The notes under the pieces are model-generated. The model had not been told where the DNA came from and did no database searches. It was given only the letters and a program-made list of their open reading frames with translations. From a phage, in sequence record PX418922.1: a stretch of 64,000 bases of DNA; one strand, 5' to 3'. A program made the position numbers and the translations under genes. Positions 36,533 through 58,744 of the stretch are shown piece after piece. How positions within the stretch are numbered: position 1 is the stretch's first letter; every line of letters begins with the position of its first letter.

Positions 36533-37215
36533 TATTTCTCCTTATCTAGAAGATTGTTAGACAAAAACACGGCACGAGCAAAACCACGTGCGGTTAGGGA
36601 TCTAAGTTGTTTTGTTTTTGCACTAGCTCCACCTAAGCTTTTCCAACCCCAGAAGCAGCCTATATGATCTACTGGTTTCTTCACTGGTTGAACAAAACCA
36701 TTGCCGTGCCAAATACAAGTTTTCTTTGTATACCCATCACGGGTAGGCATTTTAGGATGAAAGCTTCCTTCCTCTTCAAACAAATACCCACCATATTCAT
36801 AAGGATTAAAGTAAAAATCGGGTTTACGCCATAAGGTTGAAAGTTTACCTACTGGGTTCTCAATCATCCAAGGAACATTATATTTGTTACCCAAAGCTTC
36901 CACTACACGAATATTAGCTAAAGCTTCATCTAATTCCTCTGTGCTACGTTCGTGTTTGCTACCACTACCTGCTAACATAGTACAAGGTGGAAATCCAAAA
37001 ATAATATCGGGTTTAGGTATCCCATGATCTTCAGGGTTGAATGTAGAATCTATCCAGGCATTCACATAGGTTATGTTTGGGTGCTCCATCCTAACCTCGT
37101 ATTTACCGTGATCCCCTTCATCAGCGTTTACACAAAAACACTTGTGACCTGCTTCGGCATAACGTAACACCATGATCCCAGATCCGTCAAACATAGACAA
37201 AACTGTTTTACTCAT
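36532..37215 (-). CDS. DNA (cytosine-5)-methyltransferase-like protein
   Basis: Motif I LSMFDGSG, motif IV FGFPPC, motif VI-like ENPVG; start ATG 37215 with RBS GGAGGGG; short for the family (227 aa). Confidence 0.5.
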   Translation of the reverse strand: MSKTVLSMFDGSGIMVLRYAEAGHKCFCVNADEGDHGKYEVRMEHPNITYVNAWIDSTFNPEDHGIPKPDIIFGFPPCTMLAGSGSKHERSTEELDEALANIRVVEALGNKYNVPWMIENPVGKLSTLWRKPDFYFNPYEYGGYLFEEEGSFHPKMPTRDGYTKKTCIWHGNGFVQPVKKPVDHIGCFWGWKSLGGASAKTKQLRSLTARGFARAVFLSNNLLDKEK

Positions 37216-37621
37216 TACCCCTCCATTCAAGACAAGCCATAACTTTACGCCAATCACTTTCTGTAAGAAAAATCTCGTTTGCTTTCTTCCACAAATCTAA
37301 ATCGTGAAGGGTTGGAATACGATATGTTAGTTCACAGAATCTATGCTCTTCTTCTGTAATATAACCAAAATGCAGAGCCACATCGTGAAACCAACACCAA
37401 CCATGCATCTCTCGAACAACATGGTCATGCTGAGACATTGTTTTATGCCGTAAACCTAACCAACAAGGAACAGATACTTTAGTAGTCTTTAATCTGTGAT
37501 CAACAGTATTAGAGTATTCAATAATAGCTGTCAGTTTCAATCGTGCTTTTTCTAAATCCTCATGGGTCACTTTGAAATAACTTTCTGAAAGATATCCACA
37601 CATATTAATAACCTCCTTCAA
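37208..37621 (-). CDS. hypothetical protein (137 aa)
   Basis: Minus-strand ORF with several His/Cys/Trp. Confidence 0.5.
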   Translation of the reverse strand: MKEVINMCGYLSESYFKVTHEDLEKARLKLTAIIEYSNTVDHRLKTTKVSVPCWLGLRHKTMSQHDHVVREMHGWCWFHDVALHFGYITEEEHRFCELTYRIPTLHDLDLWKKANEIFLTESDWRKVMACLEWRGNE

Positions 37622-38546
37622 AAGGCTTTACTACATGTTGATTAGCTTTAAAACGTTCAACATAGTCGTTTTCACCCATGTTTTCATATAGTTTAGTAAC
37701 AACATAAAAGTTTTCCCAAGCATATTCCCTAAACCAACCACTAGTGATGGAGGTGCAGACTTTTGATAAAGCCATTATAAAACTTTGCTTAGGGGTTGGA
37801 CCTCCGATCTCTTCACCGAAAGGAATTTGTGAACGTTCCAAAGCCAAAACACACGCTTCTTCATAAACACCTAACAGGCGCACATGTTTTGGTTGAGCAA
37901 AAAACTTTTCTTTGCTGGTCATAACTTCACTTCCATCTTTCATATAAGATTTATATGCTGGAGCATCCATTAACGCGATTGCTTCATGGATAGAATCATG
38001 ATCATAAACATACGGAACCTCGTCACCTTTAAAGAACTCTTTACTTTTTACGTTTAAGTTCGGATGAGAGTAAGTGTATGTTTCTTTCTCACGCAACTCA
38101 TAAATACTCTTAAGATTTTCTGGGATCTTTGCGCCCAGTGACCGCATGAAATGAATATCTTTCATAGTTTTAAAGAAGTGAGGACTATCCTTTTTAAAAC
38201 GATGACTCATTTTAAGAAGGTAGAGCACATCTAAAGGAGCAACAACATGTCCAGCGTAAGTTCGACGAACATCATCAGAATCTTCACAATAACTAATCAA
38301 AGCTTCTGTGCTATCTCCTTGAGAAGCAATATCGTATTCCAAATGTGCACCAGCTATCATTTTGACATGGCCTTTGTTCCCTTTACGTTCTACAAGTTCA
38401 ACAAACTCGTCTTGAGAGAACATTTTTGATAATTCTTCCCACTCTTGTTCTGTACACAGGTAATCTAAATCTACACAAGGGCGATACAAGTCTTTTCCCA
38501 TGTCCATAGCATGAATTTGTAATGCACGGCTACCAATTAACACCAT
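37605..38546 (-). CDS. hypothetical protein, possible nucleotidyltransferase-fold (313 aa)
   Basis: N-terminal IGSRAL...VDLDYL resembles GS..DxD NTase signature with longer spacing; RBS GAGGAG. Confidence 0.4.
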   Translation of the reverse strand: MVLIGSRALQIHAMDMGKDLYRPCVDLDYLCTEQEWEELSKMFSQDEFVELVERKGNKGHVKMIAGAHLEYDIASQGDSTEALISYCEDSDDVRRTYAGHVVAPLDVLYLLKMSHRFKKDSPHFFKTMKDIHFMRSLGAKIPENLKSIYELREKETYTYSHPNLNVKSKEFFKGDEVPYVYDHDSIHEAIALMDAPAYKSYMKDGSEVMTSKEKFFAQPKHVRLLGVYEEACVLALERSQIPFGEEIGGPTPKQSFIMALSKVCTSITSGWFREYAWENFYVVTKLYENMGENDYVERFKANQHVVKPFEGGY

Positions 38547-38576
38547 AATATTTCTCCTCTATTGGTTGATAGGTTA

Positions 38577-38605
38577 AGTTTATCAAGCTTCCAGATTCCT
38601 GTCAA
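38577..38605 (-). promoter_or_regulatory. sigma70-like promoter on minus strand
   Basis: Minus-strand TTGACA-N17-TAAACT immediately after terminator hairpin. Confidence 0.5.
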
Positions 38606-38627
38606 TAAAAAACCCGCCGAAGCGGGT
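38606..38627 (-). terminator. rho-independent terminator (CUUCGG hairpin), minus strand
   Basis: Minus-strand AACCCGC-TTCG-GCGGGTT followed by TTTTTT. Confidence 0.65.
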
Positions 38628-38636
38628 TATTATTTA

Positions 38637-38909
38637 CTAACACATTGAGGAAGAAGAGATCCAAACACCTCTTGTGGTTAAACCATTTTCATCCAACTCT
38701 ACACCATAATCTTCACAAATGAAATCAATATAGTGATCTGCGGCTGGCGTTCCTGTAGGGTAATAAGTTTCTCCGTTACCGTAGTCACCTATCCAAGCTT
38801 GTTCCTGAAACTGTTCACAAAGTTCTTCAATTTCCTTACGAAACTTTCCTTGTGCTTGTTCCATCTCTTTAACTTTCTTTTTTATCAGCAGTTCGCCTTC
38901 AGACTCCAC
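38637..38909 (-). CDS. small acidic protein with C-terminal W-x-SSS-x-C motif (paralogue 1)
   Basis: GTG start with RBS AAGGAGAG; C-terminus GVWISSSSMC. Confidence 0.5.
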   Translation of the reverse strand: MESEGELLIKKKVKEMEQAQGKFRKEIEELCEQFQEQAWIGDYGNGETYYPTGTPAADHYIDFICEDYGVELDENGLTTRGVWISSSSMC

Positions 38910-38918
38910 AATCTCTCC

Positions 38919-39137
38919 TTAACAGCTACTACTGTGCCAAACGCCTTGAGAATTAACAACGAAACCATCATCACCTTCACCATAACAAGAAGAGGATTGC
39001 CAATCTTCAAAACAGATTGCGTCATCTTCTAAACTAAGACCAAAACCAGCATCTTCAGCTTCTTTTGTAAGTTCGTCCACCAAAGCCATAATAGCTTGGG
39101 CTTTTTCAGTTAATTCTTCAACATTACGATAACTCAT
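38919..39137 (-). CDS. small acidic protein with C-terminal W-x-SSS-C motif (paralogue 2)
   Basis: ATG 39137 with RBS GAGGAG; shared VEEL..A..L..E block; C-terminus GVWHSSSC. Confidence 0.5.
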   Translation of the reverse strand: MSYRNVEELTEKAQAIMALVDELTKEAEDAGFGLSLEDDAICFEDWQSSSCYGEGDDGFVVNSQGVWHSSSC

Positions 39138-39451
39138 TAGTATTTCTCCTCTGGTTGGAAAACGGAACGACAAGCCCACATACTAGCTTCTTTTAAATGT
39201 TTAATAGCACAACGGATTTGATCAATACGTTCGTATGCAAGATCTAATTCTTTTTCTGTGCCGTCAAAAGACCCATGATATGCTTCACAATACTCTTCCT
39301 CTAAAGCTTTGAAGATTAAACCTAAACGCTCTTCTGCATCTTTAATAGCGTTAACCTTGCCAATCTTATCGTCAGTATGCGCCTTATAACCTTTGATATC
39401 TTCGATTCCCACTTTACCTCCTATTAACAACTTAAAGAAGATGGATGCCAA
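39137..39451 (-). CDS. hypothetical protein (104 aa)
   Basis: Minus-strand ORF overlapping neighbours by 1 nt. Confidence 0.5.
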   Translation of the reverse strand: MASIFFKLLIGGKVGIEDIKGYKAHTDDKIGKVNAIKDAEERLGLIFKALEEEYCEAYHGSFDGTEKELDLAYERIDQIRCAIKHLKEASMWACRSVFQPEEKY

Positions 39452-39621
39452 TTTGTTCCAGTATTCTCATTTTCATCTTCTGGATCATAATAGCCACCCA
39501 TCCCATATTCAGGGGAGAAACGGAAACCTTTACCAGTCTCATCTGCTAACTGCTCTGCTTCCGCTAAAGCCTCATAAGCTGCTTTTACGGCTTCTTCTAC
39601 TGTTTTAAACTTGGTCGTCAT
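39424..39621 (-). CDS. small acidic protein with C-terminal W-x-SS-x-SC motif (paralogue 3)
   Basis: RBS AGGAGAGGAG; VEEAVKAAYEALAEAE block; C-terminus NWHPSSLSC. Confidence 0.5.
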   Translation of the reverse strand: MTTKFKTVEEAVKAAYEALAEAEQLADETGKGFRFSPEYGMGGYYDPEDENENTGTNWHPSSLSC

Positions 39622-39895
39622 AAAATTTCTCCTCTCCTAAAGACATGTTGACATGAAATGCACGATATGTAAATTCGTTGTCCGTTGTGTTTGAATAAAA
39701 CTCAAATTGAACAACACCGTCTTGAGAAGACAGATACATGCCAATTTGAACTGTTCCTTCTGGTACCAGGTAAGCATACTCTGGACGTAGTGTTACATTG
39801 TAAAAATAAAGTTCCCCAACACCCATTTCATCCCAAGCTTCCCAAGCGGTAACGAAGTTACTTTCAAAACTTGTTACTGATCTGAACTCTGCCAT
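39605..39895 (-). CDS. hypothetical protein (96 aa)
   Basis: Minus-strand ORF. Confidence 0.5.
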   Translation of the reverse strand: MAEFRSVTSFESNFVTAWEAWDEMGVGELYFYNVTLRPEYAYLVPEGTVQIGMYLSSQDGVVQFEFYSNTTDNEFTYRAFHVNMSLGEEKFYDDQV

Positions 39896-40386
39896 AAAAC
39901 CTCCTCAATCTTGTAGTTTGACTCCATCTCCAATACATTTCCACGAACGTCTCTCCGAAGAAAGGCATAAGCTTTATTAGGTATTGTAGACTCATATTTA
40001 ACCATATCTGGCACAGCAAAAGATACTACTACTCCTGCTGGGCTTCTGTCAAGAGCCTTATTAATATTTCTAAGGATATCGTTAGCCAAGATTTCTGCCA
40101 ATTCTCCAAGAACGGTTTCGGTTATATCTTTATATCCCATTAAGTATTTGTTGATATCTTTCATCTCTGTATTGTTCAGAGTATAATCCAAAGGATAGAA
40201 ATTCAAAGCGGAGTCACTTTTATGTGTCCACATGAAATGCACCCGATCCGAGCAGAATCGTAACCCTCTTTGAAGAATATCTTCTACAACAGGCAGAATT
40301 TCTTTTGTCACATCATTAACCATGTTGTAATCTAAGATTTCTGCCAAGTTTGTTCTTTGTTCACCACGTTTACGTTTAGGAATCAC
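39874..40386 (-). CDS. hypothetical protein (170 aa)
   Basis: Minus-strand ORF. Confidence 0.5.
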   Translation of the reverse strand: MIPKRKRGEQRTNLAEILDYNMVNDVTKEILPVVEDILQRGLRFCSDRVHFMWTHKSDSALNFYPLDYTLNNTEMKDINKYLMGYKDITETVLGELAEILANDILRNINKALDRSPAGVVVSFAVPDMVKYESTIPNKAYAFLRRDVRGNVLEMESNYKIEEVLWQSSDQ

Positions 40387-40957
40387 TTGTTATTGCCCTC
40401 ATTACCAAAGGTCGTAGAAAATCGTAAATCTCTTGTTTTGTTTTCCCACGAATGTTTAAACAAGGAACATTATTGGCTTTAGCTATCTTCCAAGCCGTAG
40501 CTGTTCCACCTTTTGCATCTCCATGTTTATCAGTATTAGCACAAGCCAACAAGAAACATGATGGAGCAGGATTCTCCAAATCTCTACCTAACACTTGATG
40601 CACATTACGTTGGTGCAATTTTCTAGCACCCTGCTTAAGCTTTTCATAGGCTGGGTGAACATCTTTGATCCATTGCACAGAGATAGCATAGTTCATTGTA
40701 TCTGGTTTTGCAAGAACAATAACATCCCCTGGAATCTGATTACCTTTGAAATTTTCCCAAGGAACATAAATCTCCTTGTTAGTAGGATTTTCAGACTCTT
40801 GGACACCTGTTTCAAAAGCAGAATCACTACCCTCTGCCTTCCCAGACCTTAATTTAAACCCAAGGTTTGAAAGCCATTTCCCTATGCCTACCATCAAAGC
40901 CCACTCTTCTTCGGATATGTCTCTACTTCCAACTCCCGTATAGAACAGTTCTGCCAT
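40376..40957 (-). CDS. DprA/Smf-like (SLOG-type Rossmann) protein
   Basis: TGVGSR...SGKAEGSDSAFETGV and ..RNVHQVLG.. resemble the DprA Rossmann core; ATG 40957 with RBS GAGGTGA. Confidence 0.4.
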   Translation of the reverse strand: MAELFYTGVGSRDISEEEWALMVGIGKWLSNLGFKLRSGKAEGSDSAFETGVQESENPTNKEIYVPWENFKGNQIPGDVIVLAKPDTMNYAISVQWIKDVHPAYEKLKQGARKLHQRNVHQVLGRDLENPAPSCFLLACANTDKHGDAKGGTATAWKIAKANNVPCLNIRGKTKQEIYDFLRPLVMRAITSDS

Positions 40958-47553: not shown

Positions 47554-48395
47554 TACCTCTCCTTATTAAGTAATACTGCTAAAGACTGTTCAATACCTTT
47601 ATTTAAATCTGATTTTGTAAGATAGTGACTGGTTACTAGTTGTGACTTCACCGGACGTGCTGCTGGAGCATTATAGGTTGAAGCTGATACCGCCGATATC
47701 TTAACAGGTTCTGGCATCTGTGTCAAGATCTTTTCCGCAAACTCCGCCCAAGAAATAAGATGGCTTCCTGCAAAATGGTAAGTCTTAACAGACCTTGACC
47801 AACCTGTTTTTAATACTTCAAAAATAGCTTCTGCTAAATCTGGAGCATATGTTGGACAAGAGAACTGATCAGCAACAATAATAAAATCACGTTGTCCATC
47901 ATTATAGCGAGACAACATGGTTTTTAGAAAGTTATTTCCAAATTCGCTATATACCGAGGCTGTTCGAATAATATATGCATTTGGGTTAACTCCTCGCACC
48001 ATTTTTTCACCAAGTTCTTTCGTATACCCATAATTGTTTATTGGGTTAGGTGTAGTATCTTCAAAAATAGGATGAGAATAATTAAAAATATAGTCTGTAG
48101 AAATATGCACAAAATCAATTTTAAGTTTGCTGCACACTGCCGCAATATTTGCAGGTCCATACGCATTAACAGCCAAAGCAGTAGCAAAATCATGTTCTGC
48201 TTTATCTACAGCCGTATAAGCGGCGCAATTAATAACACCATCTACATAATCTTCAATAATAGCGTTTCGCACAGCTTCAAAATTTGTAATATCTACACGT
48301 TCTTTAGGATAAATTAAAGATACATTTGAAGGAGCCACTTTACGTAAAGCTTGTCCCAGTTGTCCATTACCGCCCAATACCAGATATGTTAGCAT
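47553..48395 (-). CDS. rmlD: dTDP-4-dehydrorhamnose reductase
   Basis: N-terminal LVLGGNGQLGQAL Rossmann motif and overall RmlD-like sequence; last gene of rmlBACD block. Confidence 0.8.
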   Translation of the reverse strand: MLTYLVLGGNGQLGQALRKVAPSNVSLIYPKERVDITNFEAVRNAIIEDYVDGVINCAAYTAVDKAEHDFATALAVNAYGPANIAAVCSKLKIDFVHISTDYIFNYSHPIFEDTTPNPINNYGYTKELGEKMVRGVNPNAYIIRTASVYSEFGNNFLKTMLSRYNDGQRDFIIVADQFSCPTYAPDLAEAIFEVLKTGWSRSVKTYHFAGSHLISWAEFAEKILTQMPEPVKISAVSASTYNAPAARPVKSQLVTSHYLTKSDLNKGIEQSLAVLLNKER

Positions 48396-48955
48396 ACACC
48401 CTCGCTACGTAACTGTTGAAAAGATTTAGCCATTGCATCTTTTGTTGATAGGATAGGTTTAAAACCTTCGTCAAAAATCATATCGAAGCCCCAATCGATC
48501 CCTATATCAGGATCATCCCAACGTAAACTTTGTTCACTAGAAGGGTCGTATGGAGTTGTGCATTTGTATTCAAAGATAGCATCCATACTCAAAACTATAA
48601 AACCATGAGCCAAACCAGGCGGAAGCCAAAACTGCGTATGGTGTCGTGCACGAAGAACAACACCGTCCCAAGCACCGTAAGTTGGACTATCTTTACGTAA
48701 ATCTACAGCGAAATCCAATACTTCCCCACTTACACAACGAACTAGCTTACCTTGCGGGTTATTTGTTTGAAAGTGCATTCCTCGCAAAACACCGAAGTTT
48801 GATTTAGACATGTTATCTTGAACGAAAGTTTGTCTACCAATAATATCTTCGTATTTTTGTTCATTATATGTTTCTAGAAAGAAACCACGATCATCTTTAT
48901 AAACGTCTGGTTTGATAATTACCGCACCTTCAATTTTTGTTTTTTCTACTTTCAT
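48389..48955 (-). CDS. rmlC: dTDP-4-dehydrorhamnose 3,5-epimerase
   Basis: RmlC-like DDRGFF..E and RGMHFQ motifs; ATG 48955 with RBS GGAGAG overlapping rmlA stop (ATGA). Confidence 0.8.
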
Positions 48956-49830
48956 TTTCTCTCCGCTAATTTGAGTAGGTATTGCCCGTACTCTGTTTTC
49001 TTCAGTGAGTTTCCATGATACACCAAAGTCTCTAAAGAAATCCACCCTTTTTTGAAAGCAATTTCTTCCAGGCACGCAATCTTCAATCCTTGACGGTTCT
49101 CAATAGTCTGCACGAATTGACCAGCTTCCATCAGACTGGCGTGTGTTCCTGTGTCAAGCCAAGTAAATCCTCGTCCGAGAACTTCCACTTGTAACTTCCT
49201 GTCTTCTAGGTAGCTGCGATTGATATCAGTGATCTCCAGTTCTCCACGCGCGGAAGGGGTTACTTCTAATGCACGTTGAATAACAGAGTTATCATAGAAA
49301 TACAAACCTGTGACAGCATAATCTGATTTAGGATTTTCAGGTTTCTCTTCAATAGAAATAGCTTGACGATTACTCCCAAATTCAACCACACCGAATCGTT
49401 CAGGATCTTTCACCAAATACCCGAAGATACAAGCTCCACCCCAAACATCTACCATCTCACTAGCGTTAATCAGTAGTTTACCAAAGCTTTGTCCGAAGAA
49501 TAGGTTGTCACCTAAAATAAGAGCAACAGAGTCTTCTCCGATAAAATCTTTACCGATGATGAAAGCGTCAGCAAGACCTCGTGGCTCGGATTGGATTGCG
49601 TAAGTGAGTTTTATCCCAAACATAGATCCATCTCCGAGAAGATACTCAAAGTCTTCCTGATCGCCTGGTGTGGTGATGATTAAGATATCCTTAATATCAG
49701 CCAACATCAATACCGATAAAGGGTAGTAGATCATGGGTTTGTCATACACAGGGAGCAATTGCTTGCTCACACTGCGTGTTACCGGATGAAGGCGGGTTCC
49801 ACTTCCTCCCGCCAAAATAATACCTTTCAT
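48952..49830 (-). CDS. rmlA: glucose-1-phosphate thymidylyltransferase
   Basis: N-terminal [18 protein letters not shown] nucleotidyltransferase motif; RmlA-like throughout. Confidence 0.85.
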
Positions 49831-49838
49831 AACCCTCC

Positions 49839-50831
49839 TTAAATCTTCTCACTCCACCATTGAGGGTTGTTTAAGTACCATTCAATCGTTGAGTAGAGAT
49901 CTTGTTCAAATGTAGAGTTTGCACTCCAACCCAGTTCAGACTCTATTTTAGAAGGATTGATTTCATAACGCAAGTCATGTCCTTTACGATCTTCAACAAA
50001 AGTTATCAAGTTGGAAGAAGGGTAGGTTCCTGCTTCTGGATGTACAGCATCCATGTAGTCACAAACCATATAGATGATCTCCATATTGGTTTTGGGATTA
50101 CGTGTTCCAACATTATACGTTTGACCTGGTTCTCCACCTGTTGCCACTTGAAGAATAGCTCGCGCATGATCCTCAACAAAAAGCCAGTCTCGCACCTGAT
50201 CGCCTTTACCATACACCGGAATCTCTTTATTCGTCAAGATATTTGTGATGATTTTTGGGATCAGCTTTTCTGGATGTTGATAAGGTCCAAAGTTATTGGA
50301 GCAGTTGGTTATCACAACAGGTAAATCGTAGGTACGGTACCAAGCTTTCACAAGATGGTCAGATGCCGCCTTAGACGCACTGTATGGGCTTGAAGGGGCA
50401 TAAGCTGTCTCTTCGGTAAAAGGAACGCCAGAGTCTGCCATATCGCCGTACACTTCGTCTGTGGAGACGTGTACGAACATCTTCAGTTTATTTTTTGGGA
50501 GGAGCCTTGCAGCTTCCAATAAATTGTATGTACCAATAATATTGGAGTCAATGAAAACTCGTGGATTCTTGATAGAATTATCCACATGACTCTCTGCCGC
50601 TAAGTGAATGATGAAATCGGGATTGCACTCTACTACTAAACTTTTGACCTGGGTTTCGTTTGCCAAATCTGTTATGCTTAGTTTAACGTGAGTGATATCG
50701 CCTACATTCTCAATATCTGCTGCATAGCCCATCTTATCAACGACAAAAACTTCGTTATTAGGATCTTGACAAAGAGAGCGCACCACGGCACTCCCAATAA
50801 AACCAAGACCACCTGTTACCAGATAGCGCAT
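49839..50831 (-). CDS. rmlB: dTDP-glucose 4,6-dehydratase
   Basis: N-terminal [16 protein letters not shown]-binding motif; SDR catalytic YSASK. Confidence 0.85.
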
Positions 50832-50840
50832 CAGTTCTCC

Positions 50841-51167
50841 TTACCAGACATGTTGAGAAATAATAGTTTCCGTTTTAATGTTATATTTTTCAAGTAGCTT
50901 TGCATAGGCTTCTTTTGCATTCTCATTCAATTGCTCAAGATCTACAGCTATGCTTCCCTCTCCGCCTTCTAAATCAAGGCCATATATGCAATAAGACTCA
51001 TCCGCATCGTAGAAAGGAGAGATGCGGCTTAAGTCCAGACCTTCTTGTAAGAACCAGTTAAAATCTCCATCAAATTCTTCTTCAATTCTAGGATCTTCTC
51101 CTACAGCCTCTTCCCATTTATTAAAAGGTGCACCCTGTAACATACGCCATGCAATATCAACTCCCAC
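50841..51167 (-). CDS. hypothetical acidic protein (108 aa)
   Basis: GTG start; minus-strand ORF. Confidence 0.45.
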   Translation of the reverse strand: MGVDIAWRMLQGAPFNKWEEAVGEDPRIEEEFDGDFNWFLQEGLDLSRISPFYDADESYCIYGLDLEGGEGSIAVDLEQLNENAKEAYAKLLEKYNIKTETIISQHVW

Positions 51168-51303
51168 TATCTTCCTCCTCTTCTTTTTCTTCTGTATGAA
51201 CGAAACCTAAGCCGTTACAATTCCAACAAGGAATAAATTGTTCCATACTAACAATAAAATTCCCAGTGCCGCCGCAGATAGGACAAATACTTACATCATC
51301 CAT
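51166..51303 (-). CDS. zinc-ribbon small protein (45 aa)
   Basis: ATG 51303 with RBS GGAG; CPICGGTG..CWNCNG; acidic tail; below ORF-track cutoff. Confidence 0.4.
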
Positions 51304-55755: not shown

Positions 55756-55998
55756 TTAATGCATATTCAAAACATCTACATCATAACCGAACTTCATTTC
55801 ATTAAAAAGTCCATTAGCATATAGAAAACCTTCAAAATGAGTTATGTCATCAAACCCTTTTGCTTTTGCTCGACGGTCTGCTTCTTGTCTTTTAGGAGAT
55901 AAACGTTTTGAAGTGTCTAGAATTACAGTTACATTACAACCAACAGTTTCATCAAAATAGACTTCGATTTCACAGCCTTCATATTTATTATCAGTCAT
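55756..55998 (-). CDS. hypothetical protein (80 aa)
   Basis: ATG 55998 with RBS GAGAGGGA. Confidence 0.45.
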   Translation of the reverse strand: MTDNKYEGCEIEVYFDETVGCNVTVILDTSKRLSPKRQEADRRAKAKGFDDITHFEGFLYANGLFNEMKFGYDVDVLNMH

Positions 55999-56006
55999 TG
56001 TCCCTC

Positions 56007-56417
56007 TCATTGATTAGTATCATCTGCTTTCGCAGGATCATAAGAGTTACCGAAATCATCCATCTTAATATGTGACGCACCCCAACCTGTAAATTCTTCA
56101 TCACCAAAATGAAAAATATCATTTTCTTGATAGATTCGTTTAAAACCACAATTAGGTGAAACAGGGAAAGTGAAAAGCGTTGTATTTGCAAACACTACTC
56201 GCTTATCGTTATTGCTTCGGATATTCACATTACGCTCAACAGAATAGTGTGAATCTTCAGCCATACCCAGCATTACAAGCGACGCTCTAATAACAGCATT
56301 TTGTTTCTCGTGTGGGATATTGCCATTGTGTTTATTTGATTCTAGTTTCCAGATAGGGGTAGACATTACAGTAGACATGCTTACGGTAGCCCAAGTTGTA
56401 GTATTTACTAATGACAT
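56007..56417 (-). CDS. hypothetical protein (136 aa)
   Basis: ATG 56417 with RBS AAGGAG; preceded by promoter plus 5' hairpin. Confidence 0.5.
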   Translation of the reverse strand: MSLVNTTTWATVSMSTVMSTPIWKLESNKHNGNIPHEKQNAVIRASLVMLGMAEDSHYSVERNVNIRSNNDKRVVFANTTLFTFPVSPNCGFKRIYQENDIFHFGDEEFTGWGASHIKMDDFGNSYDPAKADDTNQ

Positions 56418-56515: not shown

Positions 56516-57514
56516 TCACCATTTAGTATGATTTGTTAAAAGTTGACGATGTTGAATCCAGCCTTTGAAATTGCCAGACCAAAACTTACCATTACGATCT
56601 ACATGGGTAATACCTGGTTCCCAAGAGTTAAAATCCCAAGGAGCATTGATAAACAAATCTTCAAAACAGTTCTCTCCATATTGTTCGCATGTTTCTTGAA
56701 TTGGAGTGGCTTGATGTTCAAACGGAGAAGCATGAACCTTGCGCCCAGTCAGCAAGCGACCATAGATATCTAAAGCTTTATCTTTAGTTGCATTTAAACG
56801 ACGATAGCTAACCTGTGCACAACATGAAGCTGAAATAGCTTTGGCTTCTTCCAAAGTAAGCACAACAACTTCTCCAGATTCATCTTGAACGTAGTATCCA
56901 CCAAAAACAAAATGATCGTCACCTTCTGTGCCAATATTATCGTAGAAATGGTCTACATAAGGTGTGTGCCATTGCCCTGGTTTCAGCACTTCTGGTGTAG
57001 ATCCTTCATACTCTTTGTGCATCTCTTTAGCCAAAGCTTCGATAGTAGGATCGGCTTCTTTGTCATCACGTAGCCACCAGAAATTTTCATATTCTGTTGC
57101 TGTCAGAACTGTTTTAATTCGTTGGAAAGGTTCCAGAAGACGGTTTGCAACTTGTTTGTGGTACCCTGCCAAAGAGAATTCTTCTGCAAAACGTGCTGCA
57201 CTAAGCGCGGCAAGATCCCACCACTCTTGAGCAGTATAACCTGCATCAATAAGAGCGTCATGATCAACACCTTTATCCTGCATACCAGGTTGGTTAGCCC
57301 CAAAACGATAAGGACGAGCAGGTTGATTTCGCACCATTTCAATCAGTGTTTTAACAGGTATAGCACGGCTAGAAGCAGCATTACGACTGAACAGGCGGTG
57401 AGTCATCAATTCTGAATGAATAATACGTGGATATTCTAGTTCAAAAGTTACAATCTCTTTTCCGTCTTCAGTGATGGAATGCGCAATAATACTAGCCGAA
57501 ATCTGTTTTGTCAT
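56516..57514 (-). CDS. thyX: ThyX-like protein with variant signature motif (putative flavin-dependent thymidylate synthase)
   Basis: ELMTHRLFSRNAASSRA aligns to ThyX signature LIRHRHFSYSQLSQRY with R to T and Y to A changes; 332 aa, longer than typical ThyX. Confidence 0.5.
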   Translation of the reverse strand: MTKQISASIIAHSITEDGKEIVTFELEYPRIIHSELMTHRLFSRNAASSRAIPVKTLIEMVRNQPARPYRFGANQPGMQDKGVDHDALIDAGYTAQEWWDLAALSAARFAEEFSLAGYHKQVANRLLEPFQRIKTVLTATEYENFWWLRDDKEADPTIEALAKEMHKEYEGSTPEVLKPGQWHTPYVDHFYDNIGTEGDDHFVFGGYYVQDESGEVVVLTLEEAKAISASCCAQVSYRRLNATKDKALDIYGRLLTGRKVHASPFEHQATPIQETCEQYGENCFEDLFINAPWDFNSWEPGITHVDRNGKFWSGNFKGWIQHRQLLTNHTKW

Positions 57515-57523
57515 TTTTTCTCC

Positions 57524-58132
57524 TTAGTTTTTAAAATTGTTCAAAGTGTTAAAAACATCCAAACATGTTAGCCACTGATCTTCTAAACCTGTGATCACAA
57601 CATTTGGTTTTTTCTTTAGTTCTTCTAGATGGTTATCTTTATAAGGCGTATTAAAATATATTTTAACCACTTCATCTGGAAAATATAGTAGGTTATCAGC
57701 CCTGTCATCTATTGCTATATCACAAGGCAATAAGTATTTTTCTTTCGTAGCAAAAAAGCCGTTACCAGATCCTTTGCTAAAATCAATCGTATCTAATGTT
57801 CTTAAAACATGCTTATGTTTAGAACTTAAGTGACCACCTTTTGTCACACTTGCGATCAAAAGATCGCTACCTTTCCTTGAAACATACTTTAAGAAATCTG
57901 GCATACCTGGAACAAAACCCATTGTATCATAGAGATGAGGATTATCCAGAAATCCGTAAGGATCTATATTGAACTCCTCCCTGAAACCAGGAAAGTAGTT
58001 GGTAAGATCATAGTCTGCATTTTTTGTGAATGTGTCTATCTTAACACCAAGTCCACTAATCTTATTCAACCATTCTAACCAAGCAACATCTAATGGAGCC
58101 ACAACTAAATCCCAATCACATACTATCTGCAT
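57524..58132 (-). CDS. HAD-family 5'(3')-deoxyribonucleotidase-like protein
   Basis: N-terminal IVCDWDLV DxD motif typical of 5'-nucleotidases; nucleotide-metabolism neighbourhood. Confidence 0.45.
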   Translation of the reverse strand: MQIVCDWDLVVAPLDVAWLEWLNKISGLGVKIDTFTKNADYDLTNYFPGFREEFNIDPYGFLDNPHLYDTMGFVPGMPDFLKYVSRKGSDLLIASVTKGGHLSSKHKHVLRTLDTIDFSKGSGNGFFATKEKYLLPCDIAIDDRADNLLYFPDEVVKIYFNTPYKDNHLEELKKKPNVVITGLEDQWLTCLDVFNTLNNFKN

Positions 58133-58168: not shown

Positions 58169-58744
58169 CTAACTTTCAATTTCCTGCAATAGGATTTTGA
58201 CTATTTGTTTACGGCGTTTTGCTACTGTGCTTTCAGGTTCTATTTTACGCTTCTTCAACCAAGCTTTATCTTTCTTAGCTCTACACAAAGCTATTGCTTC
58301 TTTTTCAGCTTTCGCTTCTTCAAAAGATATACCTTGTTTATCTGCATAAGCAAGAATAGAGTTGCACAATTTACAAACCATGCGCAAATCTTCTTCTTTC
58401 ACATAGATTAAACGGAAAACAAAAAGGGGAATATCCTCAAAACATTGAAGTTGTTTTGCTGCGTGAATATGATCCACTTGGAAGTCTTTCATTCCTCCTC
58501 TGTGTCCACATATTTCGCACTCACAATTCCAAACTTGTTTTGGTTTTCCAGTTTTCTTATCTATCATTACATTGCCGTCTTTATCTACACGATCAACTTT
58601 AAAACGCCTTGCATTGATAACCTTAATTTTATTAGGGTGTCTCATCCATGCTTTTCTAAAGCATCCCCTAAGATAAGTATAAAATTCAGCTTGTGTTTTC
58701 CAGGGTGTTCCTTCACCCCACATTATTTTTGGTTCACCTGCCAA
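58169..58744 (-). mobile_element. HNH endonuclease (probable homing endonuclease)
   Basis: CECEICGH...FQVDHIH...CKLCN HNH zinc-finger nuclease motif; basic C-terminus. Confidence 0.6.

What the first reader, a model, noticed from the sequence alone, without database searches (positions are those of the whole stretch)
56516..57514. ThyX-like protein with substitutions in the canonical RHR-x7-S-x-R-Y signature and unusual length
The segment ELMTHRLFSRNAASSRA aligns to the ThyX signature (..RHRHFSYSQLSQRY) with the first Arg replaced by Thr and the terminal Tyr by Ala, and the protein is ~332 aa against ~220-250 for typical ThyX. Either it is a divergent flavin-dependent thymidylate synthase, or it has been repurposed within this phage's nucleotide module (nrdAB, 5'-nucleotidase, rml genes), for example to make a modified pyrimidine.
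Basis: partly seen in the sequence, partly recalled or inferred. Interest (0 to 1): 0.5.

Follow-up and report, generated by a model that had tools for sequence, protein, structure and literature searches.

The report
Rearranged phage ThyX thymidylate synthase
This phage gene belongs to a very large, phage-only branch of the flavin-dependent thymidylate synthase (ThyX) family; one piece of the active site has moved to the other end of the protein and two normally essential residues are replaced, yet it most likely still makes thymidylate for phage DNA.

Summary
Window 56516-57514 (-) is a 332-aa gene with a strong ribosome-binding site. It is 100% identical to phAPEC8 gp156, annotated 'putative thymidylate synthase'. 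The loop ELMTHRLFSRNAASSRA aligns to the ThyX motif with T38 in place of Arg78 and A51 in place of Tyr91 (T. maritima numbering).

- **Family signatures.** Among 120 representatives of 50%-identity clusters, T38 is present in 116 and A51 in all 120. The dUMP and flavin residues R50, R125, R149, H39, S236 and H261 are invariant.
- **Reason for the length.** The ThyX fold is non-collinear here. Residues 20-176 match ThyX 60-201. The missing N-terminal alpha1-alpha2-HxxPFEH segment (ThyX 21-64) reappears at residues 227-272 (hhalign E about 1e-7; score 50.7 against at most 23 in 120 shuffles).
- **Inteins.** In homologues, inteins sit exactly in these motifs.
- **Context.** The gene lies next to ribonucleotide reductase genes in the Pseudomonas and Caulobacter phage lineages examined and within a few kb of them in phAPEC8 and ICP1, and it is the only thymidylate synthase candidate in phAPEC8.

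It is most likely a working dTMP synthase with a rewired active site. Repurposing is not supported but not excluded. I rate it a new variant of a known kind, of moderate interest.

The parts
56516..57514 (-). Complete gene for the 332-aa ThyX-family protein (identical to phAPEC8 gp156); stop codon at 56516-56518
   Evidence: ORF list. 100% identical to phAPEC8 'putative thymidylate synthase'. phrog_85 E 1e-107. Pfam Thy1 above the gathering score.
57520..57525 (-). Shine-Dalgarno sequence AAGGAG, 5 nt upstream of the ATG, overlapping the stop codon of the upstream NT5C-like gene
   Evidence: Sequence read directly.
56987..57457 (-). Residues 20-176: ThyX core equivalent to T. maritima ThyX 60-201 (beta3, active-site loop, long helix, R147/N169/R174 region)
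57362..57412 (-). Residues 35-51, ELMTHRLFSRNAASSRA: ThyX-motif/active-site loop. T38 stands for Arg78 and A51 for Tyr91; H39, R40, S43, N45, S48 and R50 are retained.
   Evidence: Alignments. Family frequencies: T38 116/120, H39 120/120, S48 119/120, R50 120/120, A51 120/120. Inteins lie at H33|S34, R40|41 and S48|S49 in homologues.
56837..56986 (-). Residues 177-226: family-specific beta-rich linker (strands 188-193, 202-210, 216-219) with invariant W-H183-x-P185-Y. It may be a remnant of the beta1-beta2 hairpin of a second ThyX copy.
   Evidence: Secondary structure of the model. Invariance. No significant match to ThyX, so the origin is inferred only.
56699..56836 (-). Residues 227-272: relocated ThyX N-terminal segment (alpha1, alpha2, H-A-S-P-F-E-H, start of a strand), equivalent to T. 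maritima ThyX 21-64. It carries S236 (=S30), H261 (=H53), S263 (=T55) and E266 (=E58).
   Evidence: hhalign E 3.2e-6 in the full-length comparison and 1.8e-7 for the C-terminal half alone. Score 50.7 vs at most 23.0 in 120 column shuffles. A canonical ThyX(1-66) HMM lands here in 224/240 members. Model helices 221-234, 244-255 and 263-267 match the canonical elements.
56714..56734 (-). Residues 261-267, HASPFEH: counterpart of the ThyX H53-E-T-P-F-E-H59 flavin/folate-stacking motif
   Evidence: H261 120/120, S263 118/120, E266 115/120, H267 119/120. An intein is inserted between H261 and residue 262 in seven homologues.
56519..56698 (-). Residues 273-332: family-specific C-terminal tail with conserved G301-x-T-H and W-S-G-N-F-x-G-W-I-Q-x-R323-Q
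   Evidence: R323 120/120 and Q321 116/120. High model confidence. The resemblance of GWIQHRQ to ThyX QWFRHRI is not significant (E 0.28).
57524..58132 (-). Upstream neighbour (202 aa), probably co-transcribed: NT5C-family 5'(3')-deoxyribonucleotidase-like HAD phosphatase. This is context only; it is not shown to act with the ThyX protein.
   Evidence: Pfam NT5C 25.5 bits vs cut-off 24.8. phrog_420. 9-nt intergenic gap.

Best explanation
The gene encodes a functional flavin-dependent thymidylate synthase (dUMP + CH2-THF + NAD(P)H -> dTMP + THF). It belongs to a very large, apparently phage-restricted ThyX clade whose fold is non-collinear with canonical ThyX.

**Architecture.** The N-terminal half (residues 1-176) is a ThyX core that lacks the alpha1-alpha2-HxxPFEH insert. 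That insert, which carries the flavin/folate-contacting Ser30, His53, Thr55 and Glu58 equivalents, is supplied from the C-terminal half (residues 227-272), flanked by family-specific beta-rich segments. The simplest origin is a partial tandem duplication followed by reciprocal loss. This origin is inferred, not shown.

**Catalysis (inferred from homology).** dUMP would stack on reduced flavin. It would be held by S48, R50 and R125 and activated by R149 (=R174). The methylene would pass from folate through flavin N5 to C5 and then be reduced. The roles of canonical Arg78 (stabilising FADH-) and Tyr91 (acid and gate, paired with His53) must be taken over by other residues. Candidates are the family-specific invariants R30, K120, H183 and R323. 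That takeover is pure inference.

**Role in the phage.** Together with the phage's NrdAB, NrdDG and glutaredoxin, the enzyme would give it a thymidylate supply independent of dihydrofolate reductase.
For: - **Sequence.** Pfam Thy1 is above the gathering score.
- **Non-collinear matches.** Residues 20-176 match ThyX 60-201 and residues 227-272 match ThyX 21-64. Shuffle control and reciprocal HMM search agree.
- **Catalytic residues.** H39, R50, R149, S236 and H261 are present in 120/120 representatives; R125, N144, S48 and H267 in 119/120; S263 in 118/120; E266 in 115/120.
- **Inteins.** In homologues they sit at H33|S34, R40|41, S48|S49, H261|262 and about 151|152, all within these motifs.
- **Context.** The gene is adjacent to NrdA/NrdB genes in Pakpunavirus, Nankokuvirus and phiCbK-like phages and within a few kb of nrdA in phAPEC8 and ICP1. 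A dNMP kinase (Magneto) and a dCTP deaminase (N4-like) lie nearby, and PaP1 encodes a dCMP deaminase elsewhere in its genome.
- **No alternative enzyme.** The phAPEC8 genome has no ThyA, canonical ThyX or DHFR.
- **Experimental hints in relatives.** PaP1 gp110 is 49% identical with the same loop. It is highly expressed, and thymidine rises during infection (PMC5377924). Vequintavirinae and relatives are exceptionally sensitive to restriction-modification systems (PMC8594841), which argues against hypermodified thymine.
Against: - No member of this clade has been assayed, as far as the searchable literature shows.
- The Tyr91 equivalent is Ala in every member. The T. maritima Y91A mutant consumes the flavin carbinolamine more than 100-fold more slowly (PMC8316439), and mutation of Y91 slows flavin oxidation about 1000-fold (PMC11940539).
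- The Arg78 equivalent, which faces N1/C2=O of FADH-, is Thr. Several other canonical positions also differ: E86 is A/S, N163 is T/S, R165 is T, and H178 is D/A/E.
- The score against the NCBIfam thyX equivalog is 31 bits against a cut-off of 87.9.
- The PaP1 and restriction-sensitivity evidence is correlative and comes from relatives, not from this phage.
Confidence: 0.7

Rival explanations
1. A neofunctionalised ThyX. It would be a flavin- and folate-dependent pyrimidine C5 transferase with altered chemistry or substrate. For example, it might release the exocyclic-methylene or hydroxymethyl product (5-hmdUMP) because the Tyr91/Arg78 functions are lost, or it might act on UMP or dCMP, feeding a modified base or a nucleotide-sugar pathway.
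For: - The two substituted positions are catalytically important in canonical ThyX (PMC8316439, PMC11940539), and the substitutions are fixed across the family.
- The score is far below the thyX equivalog cut-off.
- An NT5C-like deoxyribonucleotidase lies immediately upstream. Nucleotidases accompany base replacement in some phages (my own knowledge).
- rml genes and glycosyltransferases are present in the genome.
Against: - The Arg174 equivalent that activates uracil N3/O4 is invariant, as are the R90 and R147 equivalents. This points to dUMP as substrate.
- The family occurs in more than 1000 phage records of many genera, including N4 relatives, ICP1 and Vequintavirus, with no reported thymine replacement.
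- Vequintavirinae and relatives are exceptionally sensitive to restriction-modification systems (PMC8594841).
- Thymidine, not a modified nucleoside, rises in PaP1 infection (PMC5377924).
- No other thymidylate synthase is encoded, so a repurposed enzyme would leave the phage wholly dependent on host ThyA while it carries four ribonucleotide reductase genes.
- The NT5C neighbour is not conserved in other lineages.
Confidence: 0.12
2. The C-terminal half (residues 177-332) is an unrelated accessory domain fused to a truncated ThyX core. The resemblance of residues 227-272 to the ThyX N-terminus would then be convergent or spurious. The core would lack the His53/Ser30 segment and work differently or need a partner.
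For: - Pfam detects Thy1 only in residues 22-174, and detects nothing in the isolated C-terminal fragment.
- Individual HMMER E-values for the segment are weak (median 0.027).
- The three-dimensional placement was not verified.
Against: - Profile-profile E is 1.8e-7, with a score of 50.7 against at most 23.0 in 120 shuffles.
- Motif-level identity is clear: A-x-V-S-[YF] ... H-x-[ST]-P-F-E-H, with the canonical spacing plus two residues.
- Predicted helices coincide with canonical alpha1, alpha2 and the short helix.
- The key residues are invariant.
- Seven homologues carry an intein right after H261.
Confidence: 0.06
3. A catalytically inactive ThyX relic, kept for a non-enzymatic role such as nucleotide or flavin binding, a scaffold of a dNTP-synthesis complex, or a decoy.
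For: Loss of the 'strictly conserved' Tyr91 and of Arg78. There is no biochemical characterisation.
Against: - About 15 canonical substrate and cofactor residues are near-invariant in a family whose mean column identity is only 29%.
- Inteins target those motifs.
- The gene is consistently placed among nucleotide-metabolism genes, and the genome has no alternative thymidylate synthase.
Confidence: 0.05

Closest known systems
Canonical ThyX / flavin-dependent thymidylate synthase (T. maritima TM0449, PDB 1O26/1KQ4; M. tuberculosis 2AF6; H. pylori 3AH5; PBCV-1 4FZB); Pfam PF02511, EC 2.1.1.148
   Different: The order of segments differs: ThyX 21-64 lies after ThyX 60-201 in the chain. About 110 residues are family-specific (177-226 and 273-332). 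Arg78 is Thr, Tyr91 is Ala, and E86, N163, R165 and H178 are also changed. There are new invariants (R30, G77-M78, K120, H183, P185, R323). The protein does not reach the TIGR02170 equivalog cut-off, and no PDB sequence match is found even with a profile.
PolB, the UMP/dUMP methylase of polyoxin biosynthesis (Streptomyces cacaoi, PDB 4P5A)
   Different: PolB is collinear with ThyX and sits in an antibiotic gene cluster. There is no specific sequence relationship to the phage protein, and the phage context is DNA-precursor synthesis.
Orthologues in other phages annotated as thymidylate synthase: N4 gp30 and PhAPEC7 gp31, PaP1 gp110, ICP1 gp193, rV5-like (RudolfGeigy bas52_0188), CcrMagneto gp113; PHROG 85
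   Same: They have the same rearranged architecture over their full length (31-54% identity). Where compared directly, in PaP1 gp110, the T-H-R ... S-S-R-A loop and the HASPFEH motif are identical.
   Different: Only lineage-specific loops and neighbouring genes differ. None has been characterised biochemically in the literature I could search.
ThyA-type thymidylate synthase and its phage hydroxymethylase relatives (T4 gp42, the dUMP hydroxymethyltransferases of SPO1 and M6)
   Same: They have the same metabolic position (C5 one-carbon transfer to a pyrimidine dNMP), and they set a precedent for phage enzymes of a thymidylate synthase family changing their product.
   Different: They are not homologous. 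No ThyA-like sequence exists in phAPEC8. ThyA chemistry produces dihydrofolate and needs DHFR, which the phage also lacks.

Membership tests
ThyX / FDTS (Pfam PF02511 Thy1) | Significant match to the family profile | tested here: met
   33.3 bits against the gathering score of 24.8, E 5.4e-8. The match covers only profile positions 59-190 of 191.
ThyX / FDTS (NCBIfam TIGR02170 equivalog) | Score above the curated equivalog cut-off, which implies the same function | tested here: not met
   31.1 bits against a cut-off of 87.9.
ThyX / FDTS | ThyX three-dimensional fold | tested here: met
ThyX / FDTS | ThyX motif R-H-R-X7-S: the first Arg (Tm R78), which faces N1/C2=O of FADH- | tested here: not met
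   T38 in 116/120 representatives (K in 2, R in 2). The role of R78 is taken from PMC11940539.
ThyX / FDTS | Rest of the ThyX motif: H-R-X7-S-x-R (Tm H79, R80, S88, R90) | tested here: met
   H39 120/120, R40 98/120, S48 119/120, R50 120/120, with X7 spacing.
ThyX / FDTS | Conserved Tyr after S-x-R (Tm Y91), described as strictly conserved and critical | tested here: not met
   A51 in 120/120. For the Y91 mutants of the T. maritima enzyme see PMC8316439 and PMC11940539.
ThyX / FDTS | dUMP phosphate-binding and uracil-activating arginines (Tm R147, R174) and N169 | tested here: met
   R125 119/120, R149 120/120, N144 119/120, by profile alignment.
ThyX / FDTS | N-terminal flavin/folate segment residues (Tm S30, H53, T55, E58, H59) present | tested here: met
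   S236 120/120, H261 120/120, S263 118/120, E266 115/120, H267 119/120.
ThyX / FDTS | Collinear domain order (beta1-beta2, alpha1-alpha2-HxxPFEH, then beta3 and the core) | tested here: not met
   The alpha1-alpha2-HxxPFEH segment lies at residues 227-272, after the core at 20-176.
ThyX / FDTS | Homotetramer with active sites formed by three subunits; bound FAD | not testable with these tools
   Only a monomer model without ligands was available, and its coordinates could not be inspected.
ThyX / FDTS | Catalysis of dUMP to dTMP with CH2-THF and NAD(P)H; complementation of thyA | not testable with these tools
   The only evidence is correlative and from a relative: a thymidine rise and high expression of PaP1 gp110 (PMC5377924; 49% identity).
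PolB-type UMP/dUMP methylase | Specific relationship to PolB and a nucleoside-antibiotic gene cluster | tested here: not met
ThyA-type thymidylate synthase / dNMP hydroxymethylase | Sequence similarity to ThyA | tested here: not met
   tblastn with E. coli ThyA against the whole phAPEC8 genome gave nothing credible (best E 0.36).

The most novel reading that the evidence does not exclude
The clade is not an ordinary dTMP synthase. With Tyr91 and Arg78 replaced in every member and a rebuilt active site, it would carry out different flavin chemistry. It might yield a different C5-substituted pyrimidine nucleotide such as 5-hydroxymethyl-dUMP, or use another carbon donor, reductant or flavin form. 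In that case over a thousand sequenced phages, including N4 relatives, ICP1 and rV5-like phages, would carry a misannotated enzyme.
Probability: 0.1. Interest if true: 0.8.

Novelty: new variant of a known kind. Interest (0 to 1): 0.45.

Why it matters
ThyX is a drug target and a model for flavin-mediated methylene transfer. Current mechanisms give Tyr91 (general acid and gate, paired with His53) and Arg78 (stabilisation of FADH-) central roles. This phage clade is abundant: at least 1035 phage records and about 5000 clusters at 50% identity. It lacks both residues, keeps the rest of the active site, and has moved the His53/Ser30 segment to the other end of the chain.

If it is active, it shows how the same chemistry can be done without those residues, and it is a clear case of fold rearrangement in an oligomeric enzyme whose active site is built from three subunits. 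It also shows that 'thymidylate synthase' in thousands of phage annotations rests on homology alone. For phage biology the conclusion is ordinary: the phage makes its own thymidylate without needing DHFR.

Tried and rejected
- **PDB sequence searches.** Searches with the protein and with a 24-sequence profile found nothing. The relationship to ThyX needs Pfam, profile-profile or structure comparison.
- **Pfam on the isolated C-terminal half.** It found nothing, so profile-profile comparison was needed.
- **First AF2 model.** With a shallow alignment it was mediocre (pLDDT 74). It was replaced by the model from the deep alignment.
- **A second, degenerate 'RHR' motif in the tail.** GWIQHRQ (residues 318-324) resembles ThyX QWFRHRI, and the beta-rich linker could be a remnant of beta1-beta2. 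Neither is significant (E 0.28 and 0.17). An internal-repeat test of the N-terminus against the C-terminus was also negative. The duplication-and-loss origin therefore remains a hypothesis.
- **A conserved partner gene.** The small downstream ORFs differ between lineages (different PHROGs, no Pfam hit). The ORF annotated 'thymidylate synthase' in K5 and Ab03 (phrog_3506) has no detectable ThyX or ThyA similarity.
- **A split gene in rV5-like phages.** This was suggested by two features under the match. The gene is intact in RudolfGeigy.
- **Cellular hosts of the family.** The scan of representative genomes found 10 loci, all on contigs of metagenome-assembled genomes (MAGs), 7-130 kb long. The scan uses exact peptide patterns, so it is not exhaustive. 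The wider alignment A2 could not be used.
- **AFDB search.** It was unavailable.
- **Papers.** Leduc 2004 and Ulmer 2008, the mutagenesis papers that define the extended ThyX motif, are not held.
- **Literature on this architecture.** Searches found no description of it.
Full report
**1. What is there**

The window is essentially Escherichia phage phAPEC8 (genus Phapecoctavirus). The 3-kb stretch around the finding is 99.7% identical to that genome.

The ORF at 56516..57514 on the minus strand encodes 332 aa. An AAGGAG Shine-Dalgarno sequence lies 5 nt before the ATG. The protein is 100% identical to phAPEC8 gp156, annotated 'putative thymidylate synthase'.

Family-library results are mixed:
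- Pfam Thy1 (PF02511): 33.3 bits against a gathering score of 24.8, but only over residues 22-174 and profile positions 59-190 of 191.
- PHROG 85 'thymidylate synthase': E 1e-107.
- NCBIfam thyX equivalog: 31.1 bits against a cut-off of 87.9, so not reached.
- PDB sequences: no match, with either the single protein or a 24-sequence profile.

This is a real gene, it belongs to the ThyX family, and it is unusually divergent and long.

**2. The substitutions are family signatures at catalytic positions**

Profile-profile alignment gives these equivalences:

| Phage protein | T. maritima ThyX |
|---|---|
| E35 | Q75 |
| T38 | R78 |
| H39 | H79 |
| R40 | R80 |
| S43 | S83 |
| N45 | N85 |
| A46 | E86 |
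| S48 | S88 |
| R50 | R90 |
| A51 | Y91 |
| R125 | R147 |
| N144 | N169 |
| R149 | R174 |

The family is very large. It has 1035 phage records by tblastn and 4982 representatives of 50%-identity clusters at E <= 1e-3.

In 120 such representatives:
- T38 occurs in 116, and A51 in all 120.
- H39, R50 and R149 occur in all 120.
- S48, R125 and N144 occur in 119.

They are not peripheral positions. Tyr91 and Ser88 are described as strictly conserved and critical. Mutation of Y91 slows flavin oxidation about 1000-fold, and R78 faces N1/C2=O of FADH- (PMC11940539). [quoted passage not shown]

From my memory of Ulmer et al. 2008 (paper not held), the 'extended ThyX motif' is Y..H..RHR-X7-S-x-R-Y..R. 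The phage clade keeps every element of it except the first Arg and the Tyr after S-x-R.

**3. Why the protein is long: a non-collinear ThyX**

The Pfam match starts at profile position 59, so the canonical N-terminal third seemed to be missing. It is not missing. It has moved.

hhalign of a 97-sequence family alignment (A2, mean column identity 29%) against a ThyX profile of TmThyX plus 119 homologues gives two separate significant matches:
- Residues 20-176 match ThyX 60-201 (E 2.7e-6).
- Residues 227-272 match ThyX 21-64 (E 3.2e-6, or 1.8e-7 when the C-terminal half is used alone).

At motif level, ISASCCAQVSY...(23)...HASPFEHQATP aligns with LSAVRAARVSF...(21)...HETPFEHIVFT. This gives S236=S30, H261=H53, S263=T55, E266=E58 and H267=H59.

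Two controls support the second match:
- Shuffling the columns of the C-terminal profile 120 times gave a maximum score of 23.0, against 50.7 for the real order.
- An HMM of canonical ThyX residues 1-66 found its best match at positions about 180-280 in 224 of 240 family members, and never at their N-terminus.

S236 and H261 are invariant, and S263, E266 and H267 nearly so.

A deep-alignment AlphaFold2 model is confident (pLDDT 94.8, pTM 0.92). Its elements fit this reading:
- At the N-terminus, strand 6-14 runs through a tight turn straight into strand 20-29. The alpha1-alpha2 insert of canonical ThyX is absent there.
- In the C-terminal half the order is strands 188-193, 202-210 and 216-219, then helices 221-234, 244-255 and 263-267, then strand 269-271. 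This is the same order as ThyX beta1-beta2-alpha1-alpha2-short helix-beta3.

The simplest origin is a tandem duplication in which copy 1 lost alpha1-alpha2 and copy 2 lost everything after beta3. The flanking pieces give no significant similarity, so this origin is inferred. I also could not inspect coordinates, so the three-dimensional position of the relocated segment, in cis or swapped into a neighbouring subunit, is not shown.

**4. Independent signs that these motifs are a working active site**

Nineteen of the 150 listed representatives are at least 420 aa long, and 17 of them carry insertions of roughly 170-340 aa (mostly about 300-340 aa). Most have clear intein junctions (an N-terminal Cys, and (H/G)N followed by C or S at the C-terminal end).

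The insertions sit at five sites, all inside the conserved motifs:
- H33|S34
- R40|41, directly after T-H-R
- S48|S49, inside S-S-R-A
- H261|262, inside H-A-S-P-F-E-H (seven proteins)
- about 151|152, after L-R-x-H

Inteins characteristically lodge in conserved catalytic motifs of essential replication and nucleotide-metabolism enzymes (general knowledge). Their presence in the relocated HASPFEH motif supports its functional importance.

The family also has invariant residues of its own: R30 (115/120), G77-M78, K120, H183, P185, S228 and R323. These are candidates for replacing the missing Arg78 and Tyr91 functions. That is speculation.

**5. Context and function**

The gene sits in a nucleotide-metabolism block of phAPEC8. 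The block holds NrdA, NrdB, glutaredoxin, a MazG-like pyrophosphohydrolase, DNA ligase, exonucleases and an rmlABCD-like cluster. NrdD and NrdG lie elsewhere in the genome.

tblastn with ThyA, canonical ThyX, Dut, Dcd, T4 dCMP deaminase and DHFR found nothing credible in the whole genome. gp156 is therefore the only thymidylate synthase candidate, and the absence of DHFR fits ThyX chemistry, which regenerates THF.

Orthologues in other lineages have similar neighbours:
- Pakpunavirus K5 and PaP1: next to NrdB and NrdA.
- Nankokuvirus Ab03: next to ribonucleotide reductase genes.
- CcrMagneto: next to a dNMP kinase, with NrdA about 1 kb downstream.
- ICP1: about 3 kb from nrdA.
- N4-like PhAPEC7: about 1.5 kb from a dCTP deaminase. 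Its annotation states similarity to N4 gp30.

PaP1 gp110 is 49% identical over the full length, with an identical active-site loop. In PaP1 infection that gene is highly expressed and thymidine rises significantly (PMC5377924).

Vequintavirinae and their phAPEC8-like and phi92-like relatives are 'exceptionally susceptible' to restriction-modification systems (PMC8594841). This argues against a hypermodified thymine.

A pattern-based scan of 185,579 representative genomes found the family only on 10 MAG contigs of 7-130 kb. This is consistent with a phage-restricted clade, and it means no cellular organism shows the protein acting as a sole thymidylate synthase.

**6. Verdict**

My best explanation (about 0.7) is an active flavin-dependent thymidylate synthase with a rearranged chain order and a rewired active-site loop.

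What has been shown:
- ThyX fold.
- Non-collinear homology.
- Retention of most catalytic residues.
- Loss of the R78 and Y91 equivalents.
- Phage-wide distribution.
- Nucleotide-metabolism context.
- Absence of another thymidylate synthase or a DHFR in the genome.

What is inferred:
- dTMP as the product.
- Flavin and folate use.
- Tetramer formation.
- Which residues compensate for the missing Arg and Tyr.
- The duplication-and-loss origin.

The rivals are altered chemistry or substrate (about 0.12), an unrelated C-terminal domain (about 0.06) and an inactive relic (about 0.05).

I found no paper describing this architecture or the loss of Tyr91 and Arg78. The library lacks most subscription journals, so prior description cannot be excluded.

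The gene is universally annotated as ThyX or thymidylate synthase, so its identity is not new. The architecture and the naturally 'Y91A/R78T' active site form a new variant of a known kind, of moderate interest mainly to enzymologists and to people curating phage annotation.

Noticed in passing
Homologues P0128, P0135, P0143, P0151, P0157, P0172, P0187, P0203, P0210, P0216, P0217, P0222, P0225, P0234, P0255, P0256, P0267 (not in the window): Insertions of roughly 170-340 aa (mostly about 300-340 aa), most with clear intein junctions, interrupt family members at five different sites. All lie within conserved motifs (H33|S34, R40|41, S48|S49, H261|262, about 151|152 in phAPEC8 numbering). The phAPEC8 gene itself has no intein.
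   Followed up: partly
window about 47935-51213 (-), from phAPEC8 record 37131-40409; also phAPEC8 record 109618-112765 (outside or at the edge of the window): A complete rmlA/B/C/D-like dTDP-L-rhamnose pathway is encoded by the phage, plus four consecutive glycosyltransferase genes next to the primase/helicase gene. PMC8594841 mentions a 'putative dTDP glycosylation machinery' in phi92-like relatives. The target (DNA, virion proteins or host surface) is unknown. The pathway would add demand for dTTP.
   Followed up: no
window 57524-58132 (-): An NT5C-family 5'(3')-deoxyribonucleotidase-like protein lies directly upstream of the thyX-like gene, with a 9-nt gap and an overlapping Shine-Dalgarno sequence (Pfam 25.5 bits against a cut-off of 24.8). 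HAD-type phosphatase or PNK genes also precede the orthologue in Pakpunavirus and Nankokuvirus (L003:3841-4791, L005:4584-4997), but they belong to different PHROGs. A dNMP phosphatase beside a dTMP synthase is counter-intuitive. It may relate to the thymidine (nucleoside) rise seen in PaP1 infection.
   Followed up: partly
L003:5962-6306 (K5 gp101) and L005:5904-6278 (Ab03 ORF122): Small ORFs of 114-124 aa lie immediately downstream of the thyX-like gene and are annotated 'thymidylate synthase' (phrog_3506). They have no Pfam hit and no detectable similarity to ThyX or ThyA. The name seems to have been carried over from the neighbouring gene. phAPEC8 has unrelated small ORFs in that position (window 56007-56417 and 55756-56010).
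   Followed up: partly
window 58169-58744 (-): A free-standing HNH endonuclease gene lies within the nucleotide-metabolism block, two genes upstream of thyX. HNH genes are also near the orthologue in K5 and Ab03. Together with the inteins, this suggests the locus is a hotspot for homing elements.
   Followed up: no
window about 34000: Cumulative GC skew peaks at about 34 kb. Skew is positive before that point and negative after it, which probably marks a switch in predominant coding strand; the ORFs inspected at 53-59 kb are all on the minus strand.
   Followed up: no
window 56519-56575 (-), residues 314-332: The tail motif F-K-G-W-I-Q-H-R-Q (R323 invariant, Q321 116/120) looks like the ThyX Q-W-F-R-H-R-I stretch and could be a relic of a second copy's RHR motif. 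The alignment is not significant (E 0.28).
   Followed up: yes
BFVD entries A0A4Y5TVX3 (245 aa) and A0A4Y5TVY4 (97 aa), Escherichia phage vB_EcoM-ECP26: In this rV5-like phage the orthologue is deposited as two adjacent proteins, both named thymidylate synthase. This is probably a frameshift or an annotation artefact, since the gene is intact in RudolfGeigy (L011:1501-2484).
   Followed up: partly
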